Made by a program: the position numbers and the translations under genes
The notes under the pieces: model-generated
Database searches by the model: none
The model's input: only the letters and a program-made list of their open reading frames with translations
What the model was told of the DNA's origin: nothing
Shown: in pieces, positions 16,669 through 52,978 of the stretch
How positions within the stretch are numbered: position 1 is the first letter of the stretch
How the letters are laid out: each line of letters begins with the position of its first letter
Origin: an uncultured bacterium
GTDB lineage: Bacteria > Hydrothermota > UBA3072
Length of the DNA: 56,339 bases
Direction of reading: 5' to 3'
Assembly (NCBI GenBank): GCA_964523975.1
Contig: CAZGBM010000003.1
Location: 1-56,339, forward strand

Positions 16669-16687
16669 TCTGGCGCGATAAAGACGT

Positions 16688-16960
16688 CAAAATGCAAAAA
16701 TCAAATATTAAAATGAAAAATGACAAATCAAAATTTAAAAAAAATCAAACCACGAGATTCCACAAGATTAACACCAGATTTTTGGTTTCGTTTCCCCATC
16801 CCCAAAACCCATAAAATTAGCCACGGATTAACACGGATGTACACCCTTGTACGGTCGTTTCTCTCTACAGGGCAGGCAGATATGAAAAAGTTTTTTGAAT
16901 TAACTACAATAAAAGATGGTTGGGAAGGGAATCCGTGATTATCGGTGCAGATCTGTGGCT
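16688..16960. repeat. Cluster of short-tandem-repeat arms including an inverted pair
   Basis: 7-mer array caaaatg/caaaaat/caaatat (16688-16740); aaccacgagattccacaagatt (16748-16780); agccacggattaacacggat (16819-16844) inverted to atccgtgattatcggtgcagatctgtggct (16931-16960). Confidence 0.7.
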
Positions 16961-16980
16961 AATAAAAATATAGGTTTACC

Positions 16981-17418: not shown

Positions 17419-17433
17419 AAATTCATTTATATT

Positions 17434-17462
17434 AACCACAAAGTACACAGAGGAACACAAAG
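17434..17462. repeat. Orphan repeat arm
   Basis: aaccacaaag tacacagag gaacacaaag, 9-10 bp period starting with AACCAC. Confidence 0.55.
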
Positions 17463-17537
17463 AATTCGGTAACGGGGAGCCAGAAGTTAAAATTCCTAAA
17501 ACTTTGAAATTTTTGGTTTGGCAAAAGGAAATAAACT

Positions 17538-21850: not shown

Positions 21851-22403
21851 CATATATATAGACGGCGAGTTTTCTTTCGGTCTATATAAAGATACAGTCG
21901 TCAAATATCATCTTTATGAAGGTAAAGAAATTACCCAAGAGCAAATATCTTCTATAAGGGAATTCGAAAAACTTACCGAAGCAAAAGAAAAAGTCAGAAA
22001 CTACATTTCATATAGAGAAAGGTCAAAAAAAGAAATAAAAGACTATCTTACCAATAAAGGTGTTCAAGAAGAAGTGGCGAAAGAAGTACTGGATGATTTC
22101 GAGAATGCGAATTTGATTGACGATAATAGATTTGCCTTGTCCTGGGTAAAAAACAGAAATAAAATTAACCCTAAAGGCAATTTCGCTCTTAAGATGGAAT
22201 TGAGGGACAAAGGAGTGGATGAAAACGAAATAGAAAATTTATTACAATCCGTCGACGAGAAAGAAAACGCGCGAAAAGCGCTGGAAAAAGCAATTAAAAA
22301 ATACGGTAAGAAAAGTGCTTCAAAGAAGAAAATACTTGAATATCTAAAACGCAGGGGCTTTGAGTTCCAAACCGCGCTGGATGTGATAAACGAAGTCTTG
22401 TGA
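21798..22403 (+). CDS. recX: RecA regulator RecX
   Basis: Follows recA; [35 protein letters not shown]. Confidence 0.88.
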
Positions 22404-23332
22404 ATATTGAAATAAAGATAAAAAATAAGGCTAAGAAAATAGGATTCAACCTTGTAGGGATAACCGACCTGGAACCTTCCATTTATCAAAAGGAATATAG
22501 AAATTCTGTACAAAAAGACATGTATGGTGGTTTTGAATATTTGAGGGAAACAGAAAAAGAAAGACTTTTCCCCAAGGTGAAGTTTCCCTGGGCGAGGAGC
22601 GTTGTGGTTCTGGGGTTAAATTACTGGCAGGGGAATTTTCCTCCACTTGAACCAGGAGAAGTCCGTATATCAAGATATGCTCTGGCTAGAGATTATCATA
22701 GCGTTATCGGCGAAAAATTATTTCTTCTTTCGAAATTTATTGAGGAGCAAACCGGAACAAAAAAAATAAAATATTATACGGATACGGGAACCCTTCTCGA
22801 AAAGGAGTTTGCCCAGAGAGCGGGTCTCGGGTGGATAGGTAAAAACACAATATTAATAACGGAAGAATTCGGGTCCTGGGTATTTCTGGGAGAGATACTT
22901 CTCGACATTGAACTAAAATCCGACGAAGAAAAGGACAACAAATGTAAAGACTGCGATATTTGTATCTCTTCCTGTCCGAGTAATGCTTTTCTCAGACCAT
23001 ATTCTTTGAATGCCGAAAAATGCACTGCGTACCATACTATCAATAAAAAAAACGGGTTGCCGAACTGGTTTCCTTCTCCTTCGAATGAGTACATATTCGG
23101 CTGTGATATATGCCAGGAAGTATGTCCTTTCAACAGTAATGCGAAAGCGACCAGAACAAAAGATTTCTTTCCCGATGAAAGAAAGATAAATCCTTCTCTC
23201 AGGTACCTTGAATCTCTATCAGAAGAAGATTTTGAAAGTTTGTTCGATAACACTTCAATTGGTTGGGCGGGGAGAGACGTACTGCTCAGGAACCTAAACG
23301 CTTTTAGAAAACAAAAAACCTTTTTGTATTAA
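22400..23332 (+). CDS. queG: Epoxyqueuosine reductase
   Basis: ISRYA..RDYH, AGLGWIGKN, GSWVFLGE, CKDCDICISSCP, GCDICQEVCPFN. Confidence 0.93.
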   Translation: MNIEIKIKNKAKKIGFNLVGITDLEPSIYQKEYRNSVQKDMYGGFEYLRETEKERLFPKVKFPWARSVVVLGLNYWQGNFPPLEPGEVRISRYALARDYHSVIGEKLFLLSKFIEEQTGTKKIKYYTDTGTLLEKEFAQRAGLGWIGKNTILITEEFGSWVFLGEILLDIELKSDEEKDNKCKDCDICISSCPSNAFLRPYSLNAEKCTAYHTINKKNGLPNWFPSPSNEYIFGCDICQEVCPFNSNAKATRTKDFFPDERKINPSLRYLESLSEEDFESLFDNTSIGWAGRDVLLRNLNAFRKQKTFLY

Positions 23333-23340
23333 CAATCGAT

Positions 23341-23628
23341 TGAAATTAAATATCAAAAATTAAAAAGCGAAATGATTTAGTACGCTATCAGCCATCCTGT
23401 TTCTGCTTTCCGCTAAACTCAACCCCACACACCATTTTTTAACATGTAGAAAATGTAGAACCTGTAGTTTTTTGTTTTTAATTCTATATGGACTACATGA
23501 CCTACATGTGCAATTTTTTTTGTTTTTTATGCGGTTAGCCGTAAGCGGTAAGCCGAAAGCGATTTATTGATATTTGATTTTTTAAATTCAGTGGCTTTGC
23601 CACTTGGCGTTCTTTGCATCTCTGCGGT
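23341..23628. repeat. Nested inverted tandem-repeat arrays (A-B-C-C'-B'-A') plus a trailing arm
   Basis: 9-mer catgtagaa x3 vs ctacatg x3; 7-mer tttccgc array vs gcggtaa array; AT-rich 7-mer aaatatc vs gatattt; trailing cttggcgttctttgcatctctgcggt. Confidence 0.75.
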
Positions 23629-23643
23629 CAATCACGGTTCAAC

Positions 23644-25266
23644 TCAAAAACCGAATATTTTCTTCATTTTAATTTCAACTTCCCCGGCTTCTTTCTCCAT
23701 ATTTTTTTCTCTATAATCTCTAATAAGAAGCTCGTATAATTTCCTGTTTGTAGGGTTTAATTCGATTGCCTTCAAAAGAAATGCTTCGGCAGTAGCATCG
23801 GCATCTTCATTTTTTATATTTTTTTTATGTCTTTTAAAAAACTCATATTTTTTAAAAGGTAATTCCCAATCGATCGGATTACTTTCCATAGCCCTTGAAT
23901 GCAGGTAAAAAGCAAAAGACAGATATCCAACCATTCCGGTTTCATAGAACAACTGCTCGTTCGCCATGGCGAGAGATGTGGAATAAGCAGGCAGGGGCCA
24001 TAGTGATTCTGCCAGAGAAAGATAATACAGGGCTTTTCCGTATTTCTGGTTGTTAAACTCTTTTTCTCCTTTCTTTTCTAAAAAATATGCGGATAAAGGT
24101 ATCAGATAAATGAAAGATAGCAAAACGAATATAAACTTAACCGGTAACGAAAATCTGGCCTTATACTCTTCCGGTGAGTCGTCTGCCGTGAAAAGGAGAA
24201 CAATGAAAATGAGGAAATTTGCGGGAAGGTACAAAACATTATCGAATAGTGAATGAATGAAAACAACCGTCATTAAAATTCTCTCAAATTTGCCGATTTT
24301 TTTAAAATTCATAAAGAACACAACAAATAAATATAGATAGGCTAAAAATAAAATTATTCCGCCTTCGGCAAAATAATACAGGAATTCATTATGCGCGATT
24401 TTTGCCTTTCTTGAATAATTTCCTCGTACAGGAAAATTATACCGAAGAGAAGCTTTTTCAAAACTTCTTAACCCCCAGCCGGATAAAGGTCTGTCCAGCC
24501 CCGTCTTTATTGCCTGTTTCCAGATATTCGGACGCTGAAGAGAATACACCTCTACTTTCCCAGTTACCCTTTTCTTAACGGGGTTAGGTACTAAAAGCAC
24601 AAATCCCAGCAGAATCGGGGCAACAAGCGCGAGGATTTTACGCTTAAAAAGGAAAAAAGGCAAAACGAGAATTAGGACGAGCACAATTCTCGAGCCTGTA
24701 AGAATTGAAAAAATAAAAAACAGTACCATTAAAGAATATCTTATTATTTTATTTTTTAGACTTAAACTGTAAACGAAACCAAAAACAAGTGGAAACACGA
24801 AAAAATTAGCGTATCCGTAAGTGCCTTTAACTCTCGGCAAACCAATTTGGAAAAAACAAAAAATAAGTTCAATCAAACAAAATACGAAAATACTAGATAA
24901 TAACAATTTTTTATCCGGTTTGATTAAAAGCAAGGAAACAAAAAAAACAAGATAAACAAAATACTCTAAGAATCCTTCCATCGAGGATAATAAAGCGGGA
25001 GAAAACAAGGTTACAACGAATGAAGCGACGGTAAAAATCGTTAGTGGCAGAAGAAATCTGTTTTTTCGAATACTGGTTTCTTTACTTGTAAATAAGAAAA
25101 CGGAGAAGAGAATAACCATATAAAATCCCATCAAATAGATAGTTGCTGGCGTTTCGCCACCTTTGTAAAAGCCGGTGGCAAATATGGGTATAGAACAAAC
25201 GATGAGTTTAGTTGATTCTCTATTTTCTGTTTTCAGCTGTTTGCTAAAAAAAAGATTTTCGGGCAT
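23644..25266 (-). CDS. O-antigen ligase (Wzy_C/WaaL-like) membrane protein with TPR-like C-terminus
   Basis: Many TMs; SILTGSR, RPNIWKQAI, GWGLRSF, AHNEFL motifs. Confidence 0.85.
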   Translation of the reverse strand: MPENLFFSKQLKTENRESTKLIVCSIPIFATGFYKGGETPATIYLMGFYMVILFSVFLFTSKETSIRKNRFLLPLTIFTVASFVVTLFSPALLSSMEGFLEYFVYLVFFVSLLLIKPDKKLLLSSIFVFCLIELIFCFFQIGLPRVKGTYGYANFFVFPLVFGFVYSLSLKNKIIRYSLMVLFFIFSILTGSRIVLVLILVLPFFLFKRKILALVAPILLGFVLLVPNPVKKRVTGKVEVYSLQRPNIWKQAIKTGLDRPLSGWGLRSFEKASLRYNFPVRGNYSRKAKIAHNEFLYYFAEGGIILFLAYLYLFVVFFMNFKKIGKFERILMTVVFIHSLFDNVLYLPANFLIFIVLLFTADDSPEEYKARFSLPVKFIFVLLSFIYLIPLSAYFLEKKGEKEFNNQKYGKALYYLSLAESLWPLPAYSTSLAMANEQLFYETGMVGYLSFAFYLHSRAMESNPIDWELPFKKYEFFKRHKKNIKNEDADATAEAFLLKAIELNPTNRKLYELLIRDYREKNMEKEAGEVEIKMKKIFGF

Positions 25267-40081: not shown

Positions 40082-40515
40082 AACCACAGATTCCACAGAT
40101 TTTCACAAGATTTTTCTTTTTATTTCTAAACTTTTCGTGCCAAAATTGAGCAGCAAACCAATACGCATTCTAGTCGCTTTAAGATAATTCAGCAATTGAG
40201 CTTCATCAATCTCAGTTAAAGCCTGCGTTGCCTTTACTTCAACAATAATTTTATCCTCTATTAAAATATCAGGTATGTATTTCCTATGAATAATTAGATC
40301 TTTATAGTAAACATCAATATCTTTCTGTCTTTCGAAAGAAATATTTCTTAATTTCAACTCATGATATAAGGCCTCCTGATATACATATTCCAAAAAACCA
40401 CAACCCAATTCTCGGTGAACTTCTATTGCTGCCCCTATTATTTTCTCTGTTAAATCCCTATATAACCAATTAATATTATTTTTTTTCTGTGTTAATCTCG
40501 TGTAATCTCGTGGTT
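40082..40515. mobile_element. Putative cassette: GxxExxY gene bounded by inverted tandem-repeat arms
   Basis: Left arm aaccacagattccacagattttcacaaga (40082-40110), right arm tctgtgttaatctcgtgtaatctcgtggtt (40486-40515); interrupts wzm-wzt adjacency. Mobility is inferred, not shown. Confidence 0.55.
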
Positions 40516-42893: not shown

Positions 42894-43850
42894 CTAAATA
42901 ATATTACGCAAACCCTTAAACCACTCAACTGTCCTTCTTATACCTTCTGCAAATTTATATTCAGGTTCATAACCGATTTTATTTCTTGCTTTGCCGATAT
43001 CAGCCAATGAATGTTTCACCTCTCCGATTCTACCTTCTTTGAAGATAGGTGTTATATTTTTATTTAAAATCTTGTTTAGTATTCGAACTAACTCTTTAAG
43101 AGATACCCTTTCTCCGCAGGCTATATTAAAAACTTCACCTGATATATCAGATTTAGCCGCAAGGATATTAGCTTCAACTACATTTTCTACATAAGTAAAA
43201 TCTCGAGACTGCTCGCCATCTCCAAAAATTACAGGTTGTTTATCCTCTAGCATCAGGTTTATAAACCTGGGAATCGCTGCCGAATACTCCGAATTTGGGT
43301 CCTGATAAGGGCCAAAAACATTGAAATACCTTAAACATATCGTAGGCAAATTATAGATTTCGGAAAAAATCCGGCAATATCTTTCACCGGCGTATTTTGA
43401 AAGGGCATAAGGTGAAATAGGCTCAACCGGCATATCTTCTTTCTTGGGCAGCTTTTCATTAAGCCCATAAATAGAAGAAGAACTTGCATATATCACCTTT
43501 TTTACTCCCTCTTCTTTTGCGGCTACCAATAGATTTAGAGTGCCGTTAGTGTTTGAATCGTTAACGAAAACGGGATTCTCGATTGAGCGTTGCACTGAAG
43601 GAACGGCAGCTTCATGCATAACAATATCCACATTTTTGAGTGCTTTCTTTATCTCATTTAGATTTCTCAAATCACCTTCTATTAATTCAAAATTATCATT
43701 TTCCTTAAAATCCTTCAAGTTTTTCGGTTTACCGGTTGAAAAATTGTCGAAACCGCGAACATCGCAATTGTCTTTCAACAGTCTCCGTATTATATTAGAG
43801 CCTATAAATCCCGCTGCACCTGTGACAAGATATCTCATATCATTTTCCAA
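42894..43850 (-). CDS. NAD-dependent epimerase (WbpP/GalE-like UDP-hexose 4-epimerase)
   Basis: TGAAGFIGS, YASSSSIYG, YALSK (YxxxK), RYFNVFGP. Confidence 0.92.
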   Translation of the reverse strand: MENDMRYLVTGAAGFIGSNIIRRLLKDNCDVRGFDNFSTGKPKNLKDFKENDNFELIEGDLRNLNEIKKALKNVDIVMHEAAVPSVQRSIENPVFVNDSNTNGTLNLLVAAKEEGVKKVIYASSSSIYGLNEKLPKKEDMPVEPISPYALSKYAGERYCRIFSEIYNLPTICLRYFNVFGPYQDPNSEYSAAIPRFINLMLEDKQPVIFGDGEQSRDFTYVENVVEANILAAKSDISGEVFNIACGERVSLKELVRILNKILNKNITPIFKEGRIGEVKHSLADIGKARNKIGYEPEYKFAEGIRRTVEWFKGLRNII

Positions 43851-52372: not shown

Positions 52373-52382
52373 AGAACTAAAG

Positions 52383-52858
52383 GGATCAAGGGGTCAAGGG
52401 TTCGAGGGTTCAAGGGTTAGAATCCTTTTTCTCCAGAGATTTAATAAGAGCCTTCAGCATCCTCTCAACTTCCCTTGCGTTTTCCAGAAGCTTATCTTTG
52501 TTTTCTTGAGTCATATAATCTAAATCATACGATAAAAGAAGTTGAGTTTTCAATTCGCAATACGAACCATAAGCTACATACAGAAACCTTATATACTCTT
52601 TAATTGTTCCTCTCCCATAACCTTCTGCAATATTAGAAGGAATAGAAATAGATGAACGCCTTATTTGAGAAGTTAAACAGTATGTTTCTTCTTTGGGAAA
52701 ACTACTGGTTACTTTATAAATACTAATACATAATTTATATGCTTTTTGCCATACTTTTAAGTCCATATAATTCTTCAACATAATATGCCAGAACTTTGAA
52801 TCTTTAAAATTTTCTTGAAGCTTTCTTCCTCGACCCCTCGACTCCTTGGTCCCTTAAC
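52383..52858. mobile_element. Putative cassette: four-helix-bundle gene bounded by inverted 8-bp tandem-repeat arms
   Basis: ggatcaag gggtcaag ggttcgag ggttcaag (52383-52414) vs cctcgacc cctcgact ccttggtc ccttaac (52828-52858). Mobility is inferred. Confidence 0.55.
52410..52781 (-). CDS. Four helix bundle protein (23S rRNA IVP / TIGR02436-like family)
   Basis: DLKVWQKA, FPKEETYCLTSQIRRSSISIPSNIAEGYGR, GSYCELKTQL. Confidence 0.93.
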   Translation of the reverse strand: MLKNYMDLKVWQKAYKLCISIYKVTSSFPKEETYCLTSQIRRSSISIPSNIAEGYGRGTIKEYIRFLYVAYGSYCELKTQLLLSYDLDYMTQENKDKLLENAREVERMLKALIKSLEKKDSNP

Positions 52859-52903
52859 TTTCTTCTTCCTAACTTGGGATGTGGTAATGTTGGAAGGGTA
52901 GTA

Positions 52904-52978
52904 TCGGGGCGAGTGGATTCGAACCACCGACCTCCTGCTCCCGAAGCAGGCGCGCTAACCAGGCTGCGCTACGCCCCG
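52904..52978 (-). tRNA. tRNA-Pro(CGG), CCA not encoded
   Basis: CGGGGCG/CGCCCCG acceptor stem, anticodon arm CCTGC-TTCGGGA-GCAGG, T-loop GGTTCGAATCC. Confidence 0.96.

What the first reader, a model, noticed from the sequence alone, without database searches (positions are those of the whole stretch)
23341..23590. Russian-doll palindrome: three different microsatellite arm pairs nested A-B-C-C'-B'-A'
Seen between convergent queG and the ligase gene. Innermost 9-mers: catgtagaa/aatgtagaa/cctgtag (23443-23467) vs ctatatgga/ctacatgac/ctacatg (23484-23508). Middle 7-mers: tatcagc/tttctgc/tttccgc (23383-23420) vs gcggtta/gccgtaa/gcggtaa/gccgaaa (23531-23561). Outer AT-rich 7-mers: tgaaattaaatatcaaaaatt (23341-23361) vs ttgatatttgattttttaaattca (23567-23590). 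No ORF is enclosed. Inference: the scar of successive insertions of arm-bounded elements into each other with cargo loss, or a large multi-stem RNA acting as a bidirectional terminator.
Basis: seen in the sequence. Interest (0 to 1): 0.72.

Follow-up and report, generated by a model that had tools for sequence, protein, structure and literature searches.

The report
Nested palindromic repeat element, WOR-3
The three-layer palindrome is real, but it is one copy of a multi-copy non-coding repeat family found in uncultured WOR-3 bacteria, assembled from hairpin modules that also occur separately, so it is most likely selfish mosaic DNA rather than a purpose-built regulator.

Summary
The 311-nt spacer between convergent queG and an O-antigen ligase gene contains three concentric arm pairs, each more complementary than shuffles (p 0.007, 0.0035, <0.0005). 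The 269-nt element folds better than dinucleotide shuffles (z -4.7 on + and -4.1 on -).

It is not unique. Salt-marsh and peat metagenomes hold 49-74 contigs per run that match the inner 95 nt. Eleven copies were read in full.

The modules occur independently. The inner unit (C-rich leader, T6, ATGTAG-repeat hairpin, T-run) occurs without the outer arms. The outer AT-rich arms enclose other hairpins (CACAGAG or CACAAAT arms) at six further loci. One assembly contig joins the outer arms directly. The whole A-B-C composite recurs at 87-90% identity in at least three other loci.

The same window carries GxxExxY and four-helix-bundle genes flanked by similar tandem-repeat arms, as in 23S rRNA intervening sequences.

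Best reading: a mosaic, MITE/BIME-like palindromic repeat related to IVS-type cassettes. The evidence favours layering by insertion, but this is not proven. Cargo loss is unproven. A bidirectional terminator is not supported: there is a U-tract on one strand only, and orientation to neighbouring genes is mixed. No Rfam match, no dif site, and no transcript data were found. I rate interest as moderate.

The parts
22400..23332 (+). queG (epoxyqueuosine reductase), left flanking gene. Its 3' end faces the element.
   Evidence: Pfam QueG_DUF1730 at 1.4e-17 and Fer4_16. It is the last gene of the conserved recA-recX-queG block.
23342..23375 (+). Outer arm A (GAAATTAAATATCAAAAATTAAAAAGCGAAATGA), AT-rich.
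   Evidence: Complementary to A' (I4/I5/I9; p=0.007). The same 33 nt occur at 91-97% identity at six further loci with other interiors. Metagenome depth here is about 200 times the flanks.
23382..23413 (+). Middle arm B (ACGCTATCAGCCATCCTGTTTCTGCTTTCCGC), degenerate GC-headed heptamers.
   Evidence: Pairs with B' in the RNA and DNA folds; p=0.0035. Present in the composite copies L006/L009, L012a and L007b, and partly in L010.
23414..23440 (+). C/A-rich, G-free leader ending in T6 (TAAACTCAACCCCACACACCATTTTTT). It has no partner on the 3' side.
   Evidence: Leader versus tail is not complementary (p=0.84). A leader of the same composition precedes every arm hairpin seen (note).
23441..23467 (+). 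Inner arm C: AACATGTAG AAAATGTAG AACCTGTAG (three 9-mers).
   Evidence: TRF period 9, 3.0 copies. Inverted repeat I1. The ATGTAG helices are conserved in 11 copies.
23468..23483 (+). Apical loop TTTTTTGTTTTTAATT.
   Evidence: Unpaired in the folds. Variable among the more distant copies.
23484..23509 (+). Inner arm C': CTATATGGA CTACATGAC CTACATGT.
   Evidence: Inverted repeat I1. 95.7% of pair cells form pairs across 11 copies.
23510..23530 (+). Tail GCAA T8 G T6 AT (T-run after the hairpin on the + strand).
   Evidence: Sequence read directly. Conserved in the copies. The right boundary of the highly repeated core is at 23528.
23531..23561 (+). Middle arm B': GCGGTTA GCCGTAA GCGGTAA GCCGAAA GCG.
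   Evidence: TRF period 7 x4.4 and period 14 x2.2. Found at 93-100% identity beside the core in L006, L012a, L010, L007a and L008, and alone at L007 8793-8819.
23564..23589 (+). Outer arm A' (TTATTGATATTTGATTTTTTAAATTC).
   Evidence: Complementary to A (I4, I9). In other copies it is preceded by the conserved sequence TTTTTGAATTTTGATTTGTAATTTTAAATT (loose ends).
23590..23604 (+). Terminal GC hairpin AGTGGCTTTGCCACT.
   Evidence: Predicted stem. Other copies (L012a, L022, L012-815) have AGCGGCTTTGCCGCT, a change on both sides that keeps the pair.
23644..25266 (-). O-antigen ligase-like gene (Wzy_C), right flanking gene. Its 3' end faces the element.
   Evidence: Pfam Wzy_C at 9.8e-16. Relatives have birA at this position instead.
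40083..40514 (-). Related cassette in the same window: a GxxExxY (PD-(D/E)XK-like) gene between CCACAGATT-type and AATCTCGTG-type arms.
   Evidence: TIGR04256 at 3e-45. Arms seen in TRF and read directly. Conserved between wzm and wzt in relatives.
52380..52860 (-). Related cassette: a four-helix-bundle (23S IVS-type) gene between AAGGGTTC x4.9 and CCTCGACC x2.4 arms.
   Evidence: TIGR02436 at 2e-40. TRF. Sequence.
16669..16980 (+). Second non-coding nest of arms (AAAATCA x7.6, CCACGAGATT, GCCACGGATTAACACGGAT ... AATCCGTG, ATCTGTGG), inserted between the MCP and cheW genes.
   Evidence: TRF. Sequence. The two genes overlap by 8 nt in relatives.

Best explanation
**What it is.** The 269-bp stretch 23339-23607 is one copy of a dispersed, non-coding, non-autonomous palindromic repeat family of candidate division WOR-3 bacteria.

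**How it is built.** It is a mosaic of separable modules:
- (i) An inner unit of about 95-115 nt: a C/A-rich leader, T6, a hairpin whose arms are three ATGTAG-containing 9-mers, and a T-run. GC-headed heptamers (B') usually follow it.
- (ii) A partly complementary B arm on the left side.
- (iii) Outer AT-rich heptamer arms A/A' with a small GC hairpin at the right end.

**How the layers arose (inferred, not shown).** The layers were most likely put together by insertion or replacement at or near the tip of an existing hairpin. The finished composite then multiplied as a unit into the 3' spacers of other genes.

**Relation to coding cassettes.** The arms are of the same kind as those that flank four-helix-bundle and GxxExxY genes in this window, and as the terminal repeats of 23S rRNA intervening sequences.

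**Behaviour when transcribed (inferred, untested).** On either strand it should fold into a long interrupted hairpin. That would be a likely RNase III substrate, not a classical terminator.
For: **Multi-copy.**
- Assembly depth over 23340-23611 is 40-200 times the 13x flanks in four salt-marsh runs, and the host genome's own contigs break at 23449 and 23484.
- The core is matched by 74, 67 and 49 contigs in two salt-marsh runs and one peat run.
- A 19-mer scan returned 9 true loci, and nhmmer found 3 more copies, one of them in the GTDB genome with 68% QueG identity.

**Same population.** Contigs carrying other copies have depth 11.6-14.7, against 13.1-14.1 for the window's own contigs.

**Modules are separable.**
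- The core occurs without A or B in L013, L014, L001, L008 and L012b.
- The A arms enclose other interiors at L009 9267, L022 15464, L012 815, L012 12104, L016 19501 and L010 133.
- A joint 23373->23567 exists in two runs.

**The composite recurs.** Copies 87-90% identical sit in different gene contexts.

**Gain or loss at an orthologous site.** The spacer 3' of birA is 97 nt in L022, 166 nt in L016 and 214 nt with the core in L001.

**Structure is real.**
- Fold z-scores of most full copies lie between -2 and -8; three copies are weaker on one or both strands.
- The hairpin helices vary less than the internal loops: 10 of 42 columns against 7 of 10, Fisher p=0.009.
- The GC hairpin shows one compensatory pair change.

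**Position.** Of 14 copies, 5 lie between convergent genes, 8 between tandem genes and 1 between divergent genes.

**Kinship with IVS-type cassettes.**
- Searches show the protein cassettes in this window.
- The Coxiella IVS has a 28-bp terminal inverted-repeat stem, tandem heptamers of variable number, an S23p ORF and RNase III excision (PMC4990558).

**Host.** RecA is 87-88% identical to MAGs named candidate division WOR-3.
Against: - No target-site duplication could be defined for the non-coding copies.
- No transposase, RAYT or reverse transcriptase was seen in the flanks examined.
- No empty allele of this particular site was found.
- Covariation in the inner hairpin is not significant: one pair changed on both sides, and 96 of 500 shuffles reach the observed score. 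Conservation of the stems could therefore reflect recent spread, or protein binding, rather than structure.
- Five of nine copies with both flanks long enough to test show no significant complementarity beyond the inner hairpin, so nesting is not obligatory.
- The A-only joint rests on one contig per run, with only 19-26 nt on the shorter side.
- The direction of change (insertion or deletion) cannot be told from presence/absence alone.
Confidence: 0.7

Rival explanations
1. The inner unit is a functional one-way transcription terminator on the + strand, possibly with a Rho-loading C-rich leader. Its spread and orientation are shaped by that function, and the outer arms are incidental.
For: - On the + strand the hairpin (about -20 kcal/mol) is followed by GCAA-U8-G-U6 and preceded by a G-free, C-rich stretch.
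- Copies avoid divergent spacers: 1 of 14.
- Between tandem genes 6 of 8 copies are antisense, including one between ilvC and leuA. That is what selection against a terminator inside operons would produce.
- In four convergent cases the + strand faces the left gene.
Against: - The consensus terminator scan finds nothing.
- The stem is AU-rich, has two internal loops and a 16-nt apical loop, and the U-tract starts 4 nt after the stem.
- The orientation counts are small and not significant.
- The same unit also sits just upstream of a tRNA promoter (L014).
- There are no transcript data.
Confidence: 0.2
2. It is a bidirectional terminator or a single large structured RNA that serves both convergent genes.
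For: It lies between convergent genes, and both strands fold better than shuffles.
Against: - The - strand has A-runs, not U-runs, on both sides of the hairpin.
- Most copies are not between convergent genes.
- There is no Rfam match even at E<=5.
- The modules recombine freely, which is unlike a single conserved RNA.
Confidence: 0.05
3. It encodes a trans-acting small RNA: the C-rich seed, the hairpin and the U-tail.
For: A C-rich single-stranded stretch followed by a hairpin and a U-run is a common small-RNA layout (general knowledge). The core is conserved at 85-100% identity.
Against: - No sigma-70-like promoter was found in the region.
- The sequence upstream of the leader differs between copy classes.
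- The leader is conserved in composition only.
- Dozens of diverging copies fit a repeat better than a gene family.
Confidence: 0.04
4. It is a protein-binding array at the DNA level, such as a dif/ter site at a replication terminus, iterons or a centromere. The cue is TGTAG spaced 9 bp apart, three copies in each orientation, at a GC-skew turning point.
For: Cumulative GC skew peaks near 23 kb. The hexamers are more conserved than the spacers between them.
Against: - No dif-like sequence is present.
- The skew change coincides with the switch of gene strand.
- The motif array occurs at many loci per genome, which a unique chromosomal site would not.
Confidence: 0.03

Closest known systems
23S rRNA intervening sequences (IVS) with S23p / four-helix-bundle ORFs (Coxiella, Leptospira, Salmonella)
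   Same: - Small selfish insertions bounded by terminal inverted repeats that form a long stem.
- Arms contain tandem heptamers whose number varies.
- The arm stem is an RNase III site in Coxiella (PMC4990558).
- The same window holds a four-helix-bundle gene and a GxxExxY gene bounded by arms of this kind.
   Different: - This element is in an intergenic spacer, not in an rRNA helix tip.
- It has no ORF.
- It is present in many copies.
- It has three concentric arm pairs and a one-sided C-rich leader.
- RNase III cleavage is untested.
BIMEs / REP and REPIN elements of gamma-proteobacteria
   Same: Multi-copy intergenic palindromic units, mostly at gene 3' ends, combined into mosaics of variable make-up. 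GTAG-containing motifs are present. (REPIN paper PMC3116915 was listed; the rest is general knowledge.)
   Different: - Each C arm is not itself a palindrome.
- The arms are tandem repeats.
- No RAYT gene was seen.
- The sequences and the phylum are different.
BOX elements of Streptococcus pneumoniae (boxA-boxB(n)-boxC)
   Same: Modular non-coding repeats in which the outer modules are mutually complementary and the inner module varies in copy number, predicted to fold into a stem-loop (general knowledge, not tested here).
   Different: There is no sequence relation. Here the inner module is swapped for different hairpins rather than repeated.
Cyanobacterial heptamer repeats (STRR) and small dispersed repeats (SDR; Elhai et al. 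2008, cited in PMC5861425)
   Same: Tandem heptamers in intergenic DNA together with very small mobile repeats. I recall from the 2008 paper, which is not held here, that these repeats insert into other repeats.
   Different: The phylum and the sequences differ. The paper could not be read, so the comparison rests on memory and on one citing sentence.
MITEs (for example Correia and Nezha elements)
   Same: 50-500 bp, terminal inverted repeats, no coding capacity, many diverged copies, and a stable fold-back structure.
   Different: No target-site duplication and no parent IS with matching ends were found. The interior is itself made of further palindromes.

Membership tests
MITE | Terminal inverted repeats | tested here: met
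   AAATTAAATATCAAAA ... TTTTGATATTTAATTT in the copies. In the window the arms are 17 nt and 88% complementary (I4).
MITE | Many dispersed copies, 50-500 bp, non-coding | tested here: met
   No ORF is enclosed.
MITE | Target-site duplication | tested here: inconclusive
   No direct repeat was evident at the A-arm boundaries in 9 copies. T-runs flank the inner hairpins but may belong to the unit. The GxxExxY cassette in L031 has a 10-nt flanking direct repeat.
MITE | A parent autonomous element with the same ends | not testable with these tools
None was seen in about 400 kb of fetched WOR-3 DNA.
23S rRNA IVS-type element | Terminal inverted repeats forming a stem, with tandem short repeats in the arms | tested here: met
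   Compare PMC4990558.
23S rRNA IVS-type element | Located in a 23S rRNA helix tip | tested here: not met
   It lies in the intergenic spacer between queG and the ligase gene. There is no rRNA in the window.
23S rRNA IVS-type element | Carries an S23p / four-helix-bundle ORF | tested here: not met
   No ORF is present. No such gene lies beside any other copy. One exists elsewhere in the window with different arms.
23S rRNA IVS-type element | Excised from RNA by RNase III | not testable with these tools
   No RNA runs were available.
REP / REPIN | Each unit is itself a short imperfect palindrome with a GTAG-type head | tested here: not met
   The C arm is three direct 9-mers and has no internal palindrome. 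GTAG is present, but as a repeated core.
REP / REPIN | A cognate RAYT transposase in the genome | not testable with these tools
   No complete genome was available.
Intrinsic (Rho-independent) terminator, bidirectional | A short GC-rich stem with a U-tract on each transcribed strand | tested here: not met
   The scan found 0 terminators. T-runs lie on both sides of the hairpin on the + strand, so the - strand has none.
Known RNA family (Rfam 15) | A match at the gathering score | tested here: not met
   Only tRNAs were found in the window. In 23250-23700 the best E-values were 2.4 and 5, for eukaryotic families, which is chance level.
dif / Xer site | A 28-bp site with ATAA-N6-TTATGT-like arms | tested here: not met
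   There were no matches between 22426 and 24728, and the total count is below the shuffle expectation.

The most novel reading that the evidence does not exclude
The non-coding dolls, the GxxExxY and four-helix-bundle cassettes, and the 23S rRNA intervening sequences are one class of mobile palindrome. These elements would integrate at the tips of existing hairpins, in DNA or RNA, and their arms would be rebuilt as short tandem repeats. That would explain why the elements nest concentrically, why IVSs sit at rRNA helix tips, and why a C-rich leader marks one side of each hairpin unit.
Probability: 0.2. Interest if true: 0.75.

Novelty: new variant of a known kind. Interest (0 to 1): 0.45.

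Why it matters
- **A repeat family in an uncultured phylum.** The work documents a family of nestable palindromic repeats in WOR-3, with defined modules and boundaries. This helps annotation: such arms get translated into false N-termini, and they break short-read assemblies exactly as they do here at 23449 and 23484.
- **A link to an old open question.** The family ties non-coding intergenic repeats to the tandem-repeat arms that bound four-helix-bundle and GxxExxY genes. The origin and mobility of 23S rRNA intervening sequences have been open since 1990. A lineage in which related arm-bounded units are numerous, modular and polymorphic between close relatives offers material to infer the insertion rule by comparison.
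- **Local genome evolution.** The element marks the point where conserved synteny (recA-recX-queG-birA) gives way to a variable polysaccharide cluster.

Tried and rejected
- **Rfam.** Tried at gathering scores and at E<=5; nothing relevant.
- **Promoter and terminator scan.** Sigma-70 promoter and intrinsic terminator consensus scans found none.
- **dif / replication terminus.** The idea came from the GC-skew peak. No dif-like site was found, and the skew change coincides with the gene-strand switch.
- **Other copies inside the 56-kb window.** None by blastn. The one exact 14-mer at 43178 lies in coding sequence.
- **Viral contigs.** Three scans gave only two chance hits in coding regions (L015, L034) and no A arm. 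L011 from the metagenome scan is also a chance hit.
- **RNA sequencing runs.** None were listed.
- **Four-helix-bundle or GxxExxY genes beside any copy.** None were found in the fetched loci. Fetching GxxExxY relatives returned only the orthologous wzm-wzt site and no further repeat copies.
- **Covariation in the inner hairpin.** Too little variation to say anything.
- **Mobilising gene in a locus rich in copies (L012).** It holds only housekeeping genes: ilvB, ilvC, leuA, leuB and an OmpA-family gene.
- **Elhai et al. 2008.** The paper could not be read.
- **Empty allele of this site.** No contig joins queG directly to the ligase gene.

Full report
**Setting.** The finding lies in the 311-nt spacer 23333-23643. 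On the left is queG (22400-23332, +; Pfam QueG_DUF1730 at 1.4e-17). On the right is a Wzy_C O-antigen ligase-like gene (23644-25266, -), convergent with queG. Upstream are recA and recX. RecA is 87-88% identical to proteins named from candidate division WOR-3 MAGs. The DNA comes from salt-marsh metagenomes. No ORF of 40 aa or more lies within 23333-23566.

- The repeat finder reports the inner pair at 23442-23467 and 23484-23509 (26 nt, 73% complementary) and the outer pair at 23343-23359 and 23564-23580 (17 nt, 88%).
- The middle pair is weaker. It is paired in both the RNA and the DNA minimum-energy folds, about 23400-23414 with 23545-23559.
- Against 2000 shuffles of the right arm, best ungapped complementarity gives p=0.007 (A), 0.0035 (B) and <0.0005 (C). 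The 22-nt stretches between C and B on either side are not complementary (p=0.84).
- The 269-nt element 23339-23607 folds with z=-4.7 (+ RNA), -4.1 (- RNA) and -3.7 (DNA) against dinucleotide shuffles.
- TRF confirms tandem structure for the left C arm (period 9, 3.0 copies) and for B' (period 7 x4.4, or period 14 x2.2). The other arms are too degenerate for TRF.

**It is a repeat family, not a one-off.**
- When Logan contigs of four salt-marsh runs are laid on 23000-24000, depth is 13-14x on the flanks and 150-2800x across 23340-23611. The genome's own contigs stop at 23449 and restart at 23484. About 150 other contigs match pieces at 85-99% identity.
- The core 23425-23535 alone is matched by 74 and 67 contigs in two salt-marsh runs and by 49 in a peat run from another study. 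An exact 54-mer unitig has depth 107.
- Contigs with other copies have depth 11.6-14.7, like the window's own contigs, so several copies belong to the same population.
- A scan of JGI metagenome contigs with a conserved 19-mer gave nine true loci.
- nhmmer added three more copies. One is in the only related GTDB genome, which has 68% QueG identity.
- No further copy lies in the 56-kb window.

**Anatomy from comparing copies.**
- *Core.* The most conserved part is 23434-23528: T6, AACATGTAG-AAAATGTAG-AACCTGTAG, a 16-nt T-rich loop, CTATATGGA-CTACATGAC-CTACATGT, then GCAA and a T-run. It is preceded by a C/A-rich, G-free leader.
- *Helices versus loops.* In 11 copies 95.7% of the hairpin's pair cells are paired. 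The helices vary less than the 3-nt internal loops (10 of 42 columns against 7 of 10, Fisher p=0.009). True covariation is negligible: one pair changed on both sides, not significant.
- *B'.* It follows the core in most copies.
- *Left B arm.* It is present only in the composite class: the window, L006/L009, L012a, L007b, and partly L010.
- *Other copies.* In L014, L008, L013/L005, L001 and L012b the left side carries CACAGAG, CACAAAG or GCTAA-type repeats. In L013 a CACAAAG/CTTTGTG pair encloses the core (flank complementarity z=10.3). Five of the nine copies with both flanks long enough to test have no significant flank complementarity.
- *A arm.* The 33-nt A arm occurs at 91-97% identity at six additional loci, two of them in the recA regions of related species. 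There A and A' enclose other interiors. Each interior again consists of a C-rich leader ending in a T-run, a hairpin with tandem-repeat arms (CACAAAT or CACAGAG), and a T-run. L016 19501 is itself a three-level nest.
- *A-only junction.* One contig in each of two runs joins 23373 directly to 23567, giving A/A' without the 193-nt interior.
- *Composite copies.* The complete A-B-C composite recurs at 87-90% identity in different gene contexts.
- *GC hairpin.* The terminal GC hairpin differs between copies by a change on both sides that keeps the pair: AGTGGC/GCCACT against AGCGGC/GCCGCT.

**Gain and loss.**
- The spacer after birA is orthologous in three related genomes. It holds 97 nt in L022, 166 nt with a different leader-plus-arm interior in L016, and 214 nt with the ATGTAG core in L001. 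All three are bounded by the same kinds of heptamers.
- In the window, a 312-nt nest of arms separates the MCP and cheW genes, which overlap by 8 nt in relatives.
- At the finding's own site no empty allele was seen. Relatives cannot serve as a comparison, because queG is followed by birA in all of them. Synteny therefore ends exactly at the element.

**Relation to coding cassettes.**
- The window holds a GxxExxY gene (TIGR04256, 3e-45) between CCACAGATT and AATCTCGTG repeats. It also holds a four-helix-bundle gene (TIGR02436, 2e-40) between AAGGGTTC and CCTCGACC repeats.
- The four-helix-bundle family is the S23p family of 23S rRNA intervening sequences. In Coxiella the IVS has a 28-bp terminal inverted-repeat stem and tandem GACAGAT heptamers of variable number, and it is cut out by RNase III (PMC4990558).
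- Many arms here start AAC(C)AC... and end ...GTGGTT. The ATGTAG hairpin starts AACATG.
- No coding version with A, B or C arms was found. Cargo loss therefore remains a conjecture.

**Function.**
- The terminator scan found nothing. The hairpin is AU-rich with internal loops and a 16-nt loop.
- T-runs flank the hairpin on the + strand only, so a bidirectional terminator is excluded.
- Of 14 copies, 5 lie between convergent genes, 8 between tandem genes (6 antisense, 2 sense) and 1 between divergent genes. One antisense copy lies between ilvC and leuA. This fits a repeat that is tolerated at gene 3' ends. It leaves room for weak one-way termination by the + strand (rival 1), but the numbers are small.
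- There is no Rfam match, no promoter, no dif site, no viral association and no RNA data.

**Verdict.**
- The nested palindrome is real and non-random. It is best explained as a mosaic, multi-copy palindromic repeat of WOR-3 bacteria, akin in plan to BIME, BOX and MITE elements and in its arm type to IVS cassettes.
Cargo loss is unproven, and the bidirectional terminator reading is not supported.
- Three things are unexplained: the one-sided C-rich leader, the enzyme that moves these units, and whether insertion is aimed at hairpin tips.

Noticed in passing
window 40083-40514 (-); L025, L031: A GxxExxY gene cassette sits between wzm and wzt, and it is conserved there in relatives. The called ORF starts just outside the 5' arm, so the repeat arm is translated (MEPRDYTRLTQKK...). 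In L031 a 10-nt direct repeat, TAAAAATGAA, flanks the cassette; this may be a target-site duplication that copies the wzt start codon. Proteins 71-75% identical carry names from Methanophagales archaea.
   Followed up: partly
window 52380-52860 (-): A four-helix-bundle (23S IVS-type, TIGR02436) gene lies between AAGGGTTC x4.9 and CCTCGACC x2.4 arms, directly beside a tRNA gene at 52904-52978.
   Followed up: partly
window 16669-16980 and 17427-17465: A 312-nt non-coding nest of repeat arms splits the MCP and cheW genes, which overlap by 8 nt in related genomes. A further AACCACAAAG/CACAGAG run follows cheW.
   Followed up: partly
window 23333-23643 and rightwards to about 52 kb: Synteny with relatives (recA-recX-queG-birA) ends at the element. 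To its right lies a polysaccharide/O-antigen cluster on the opposite strand with lower GC (33-35%). Cumulative GC skew peaks here.
   Followed up: partly
window 16793-16819, 23414-23440; L009, L013, L016: Every arm hairpin is preceded on one side by a C/A-rich, G-free leader ending in a T-run. The leaders are alike in composition but not in sequence, and they are absent from the protein-coding cassettes. This is unexplained.
   Followed up: partly
window 16853-16880; L008 (left flank of its core copy): Another repeated non-coding module, GGTCGTTYCTCYCTACAGGGCAGGCA, is shared between the che-operon nest and an unrelated locus.
   Followed up: no
L014 3191-3400: One copy of the core sits just upstream of a TTGACA-17-TATAAC promoter-like site of a tRNA gene. 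This suggests sigma-70-type promoters in this lineage.
   Followed up: no
window 23472/23473 (metagenome contigs): Several contigs match the left C arm and then continue for at least 30 nt with unrelated sequence. They may be solo arms or copies with a larger interior. They could not be retrieved.
   Followed up: no
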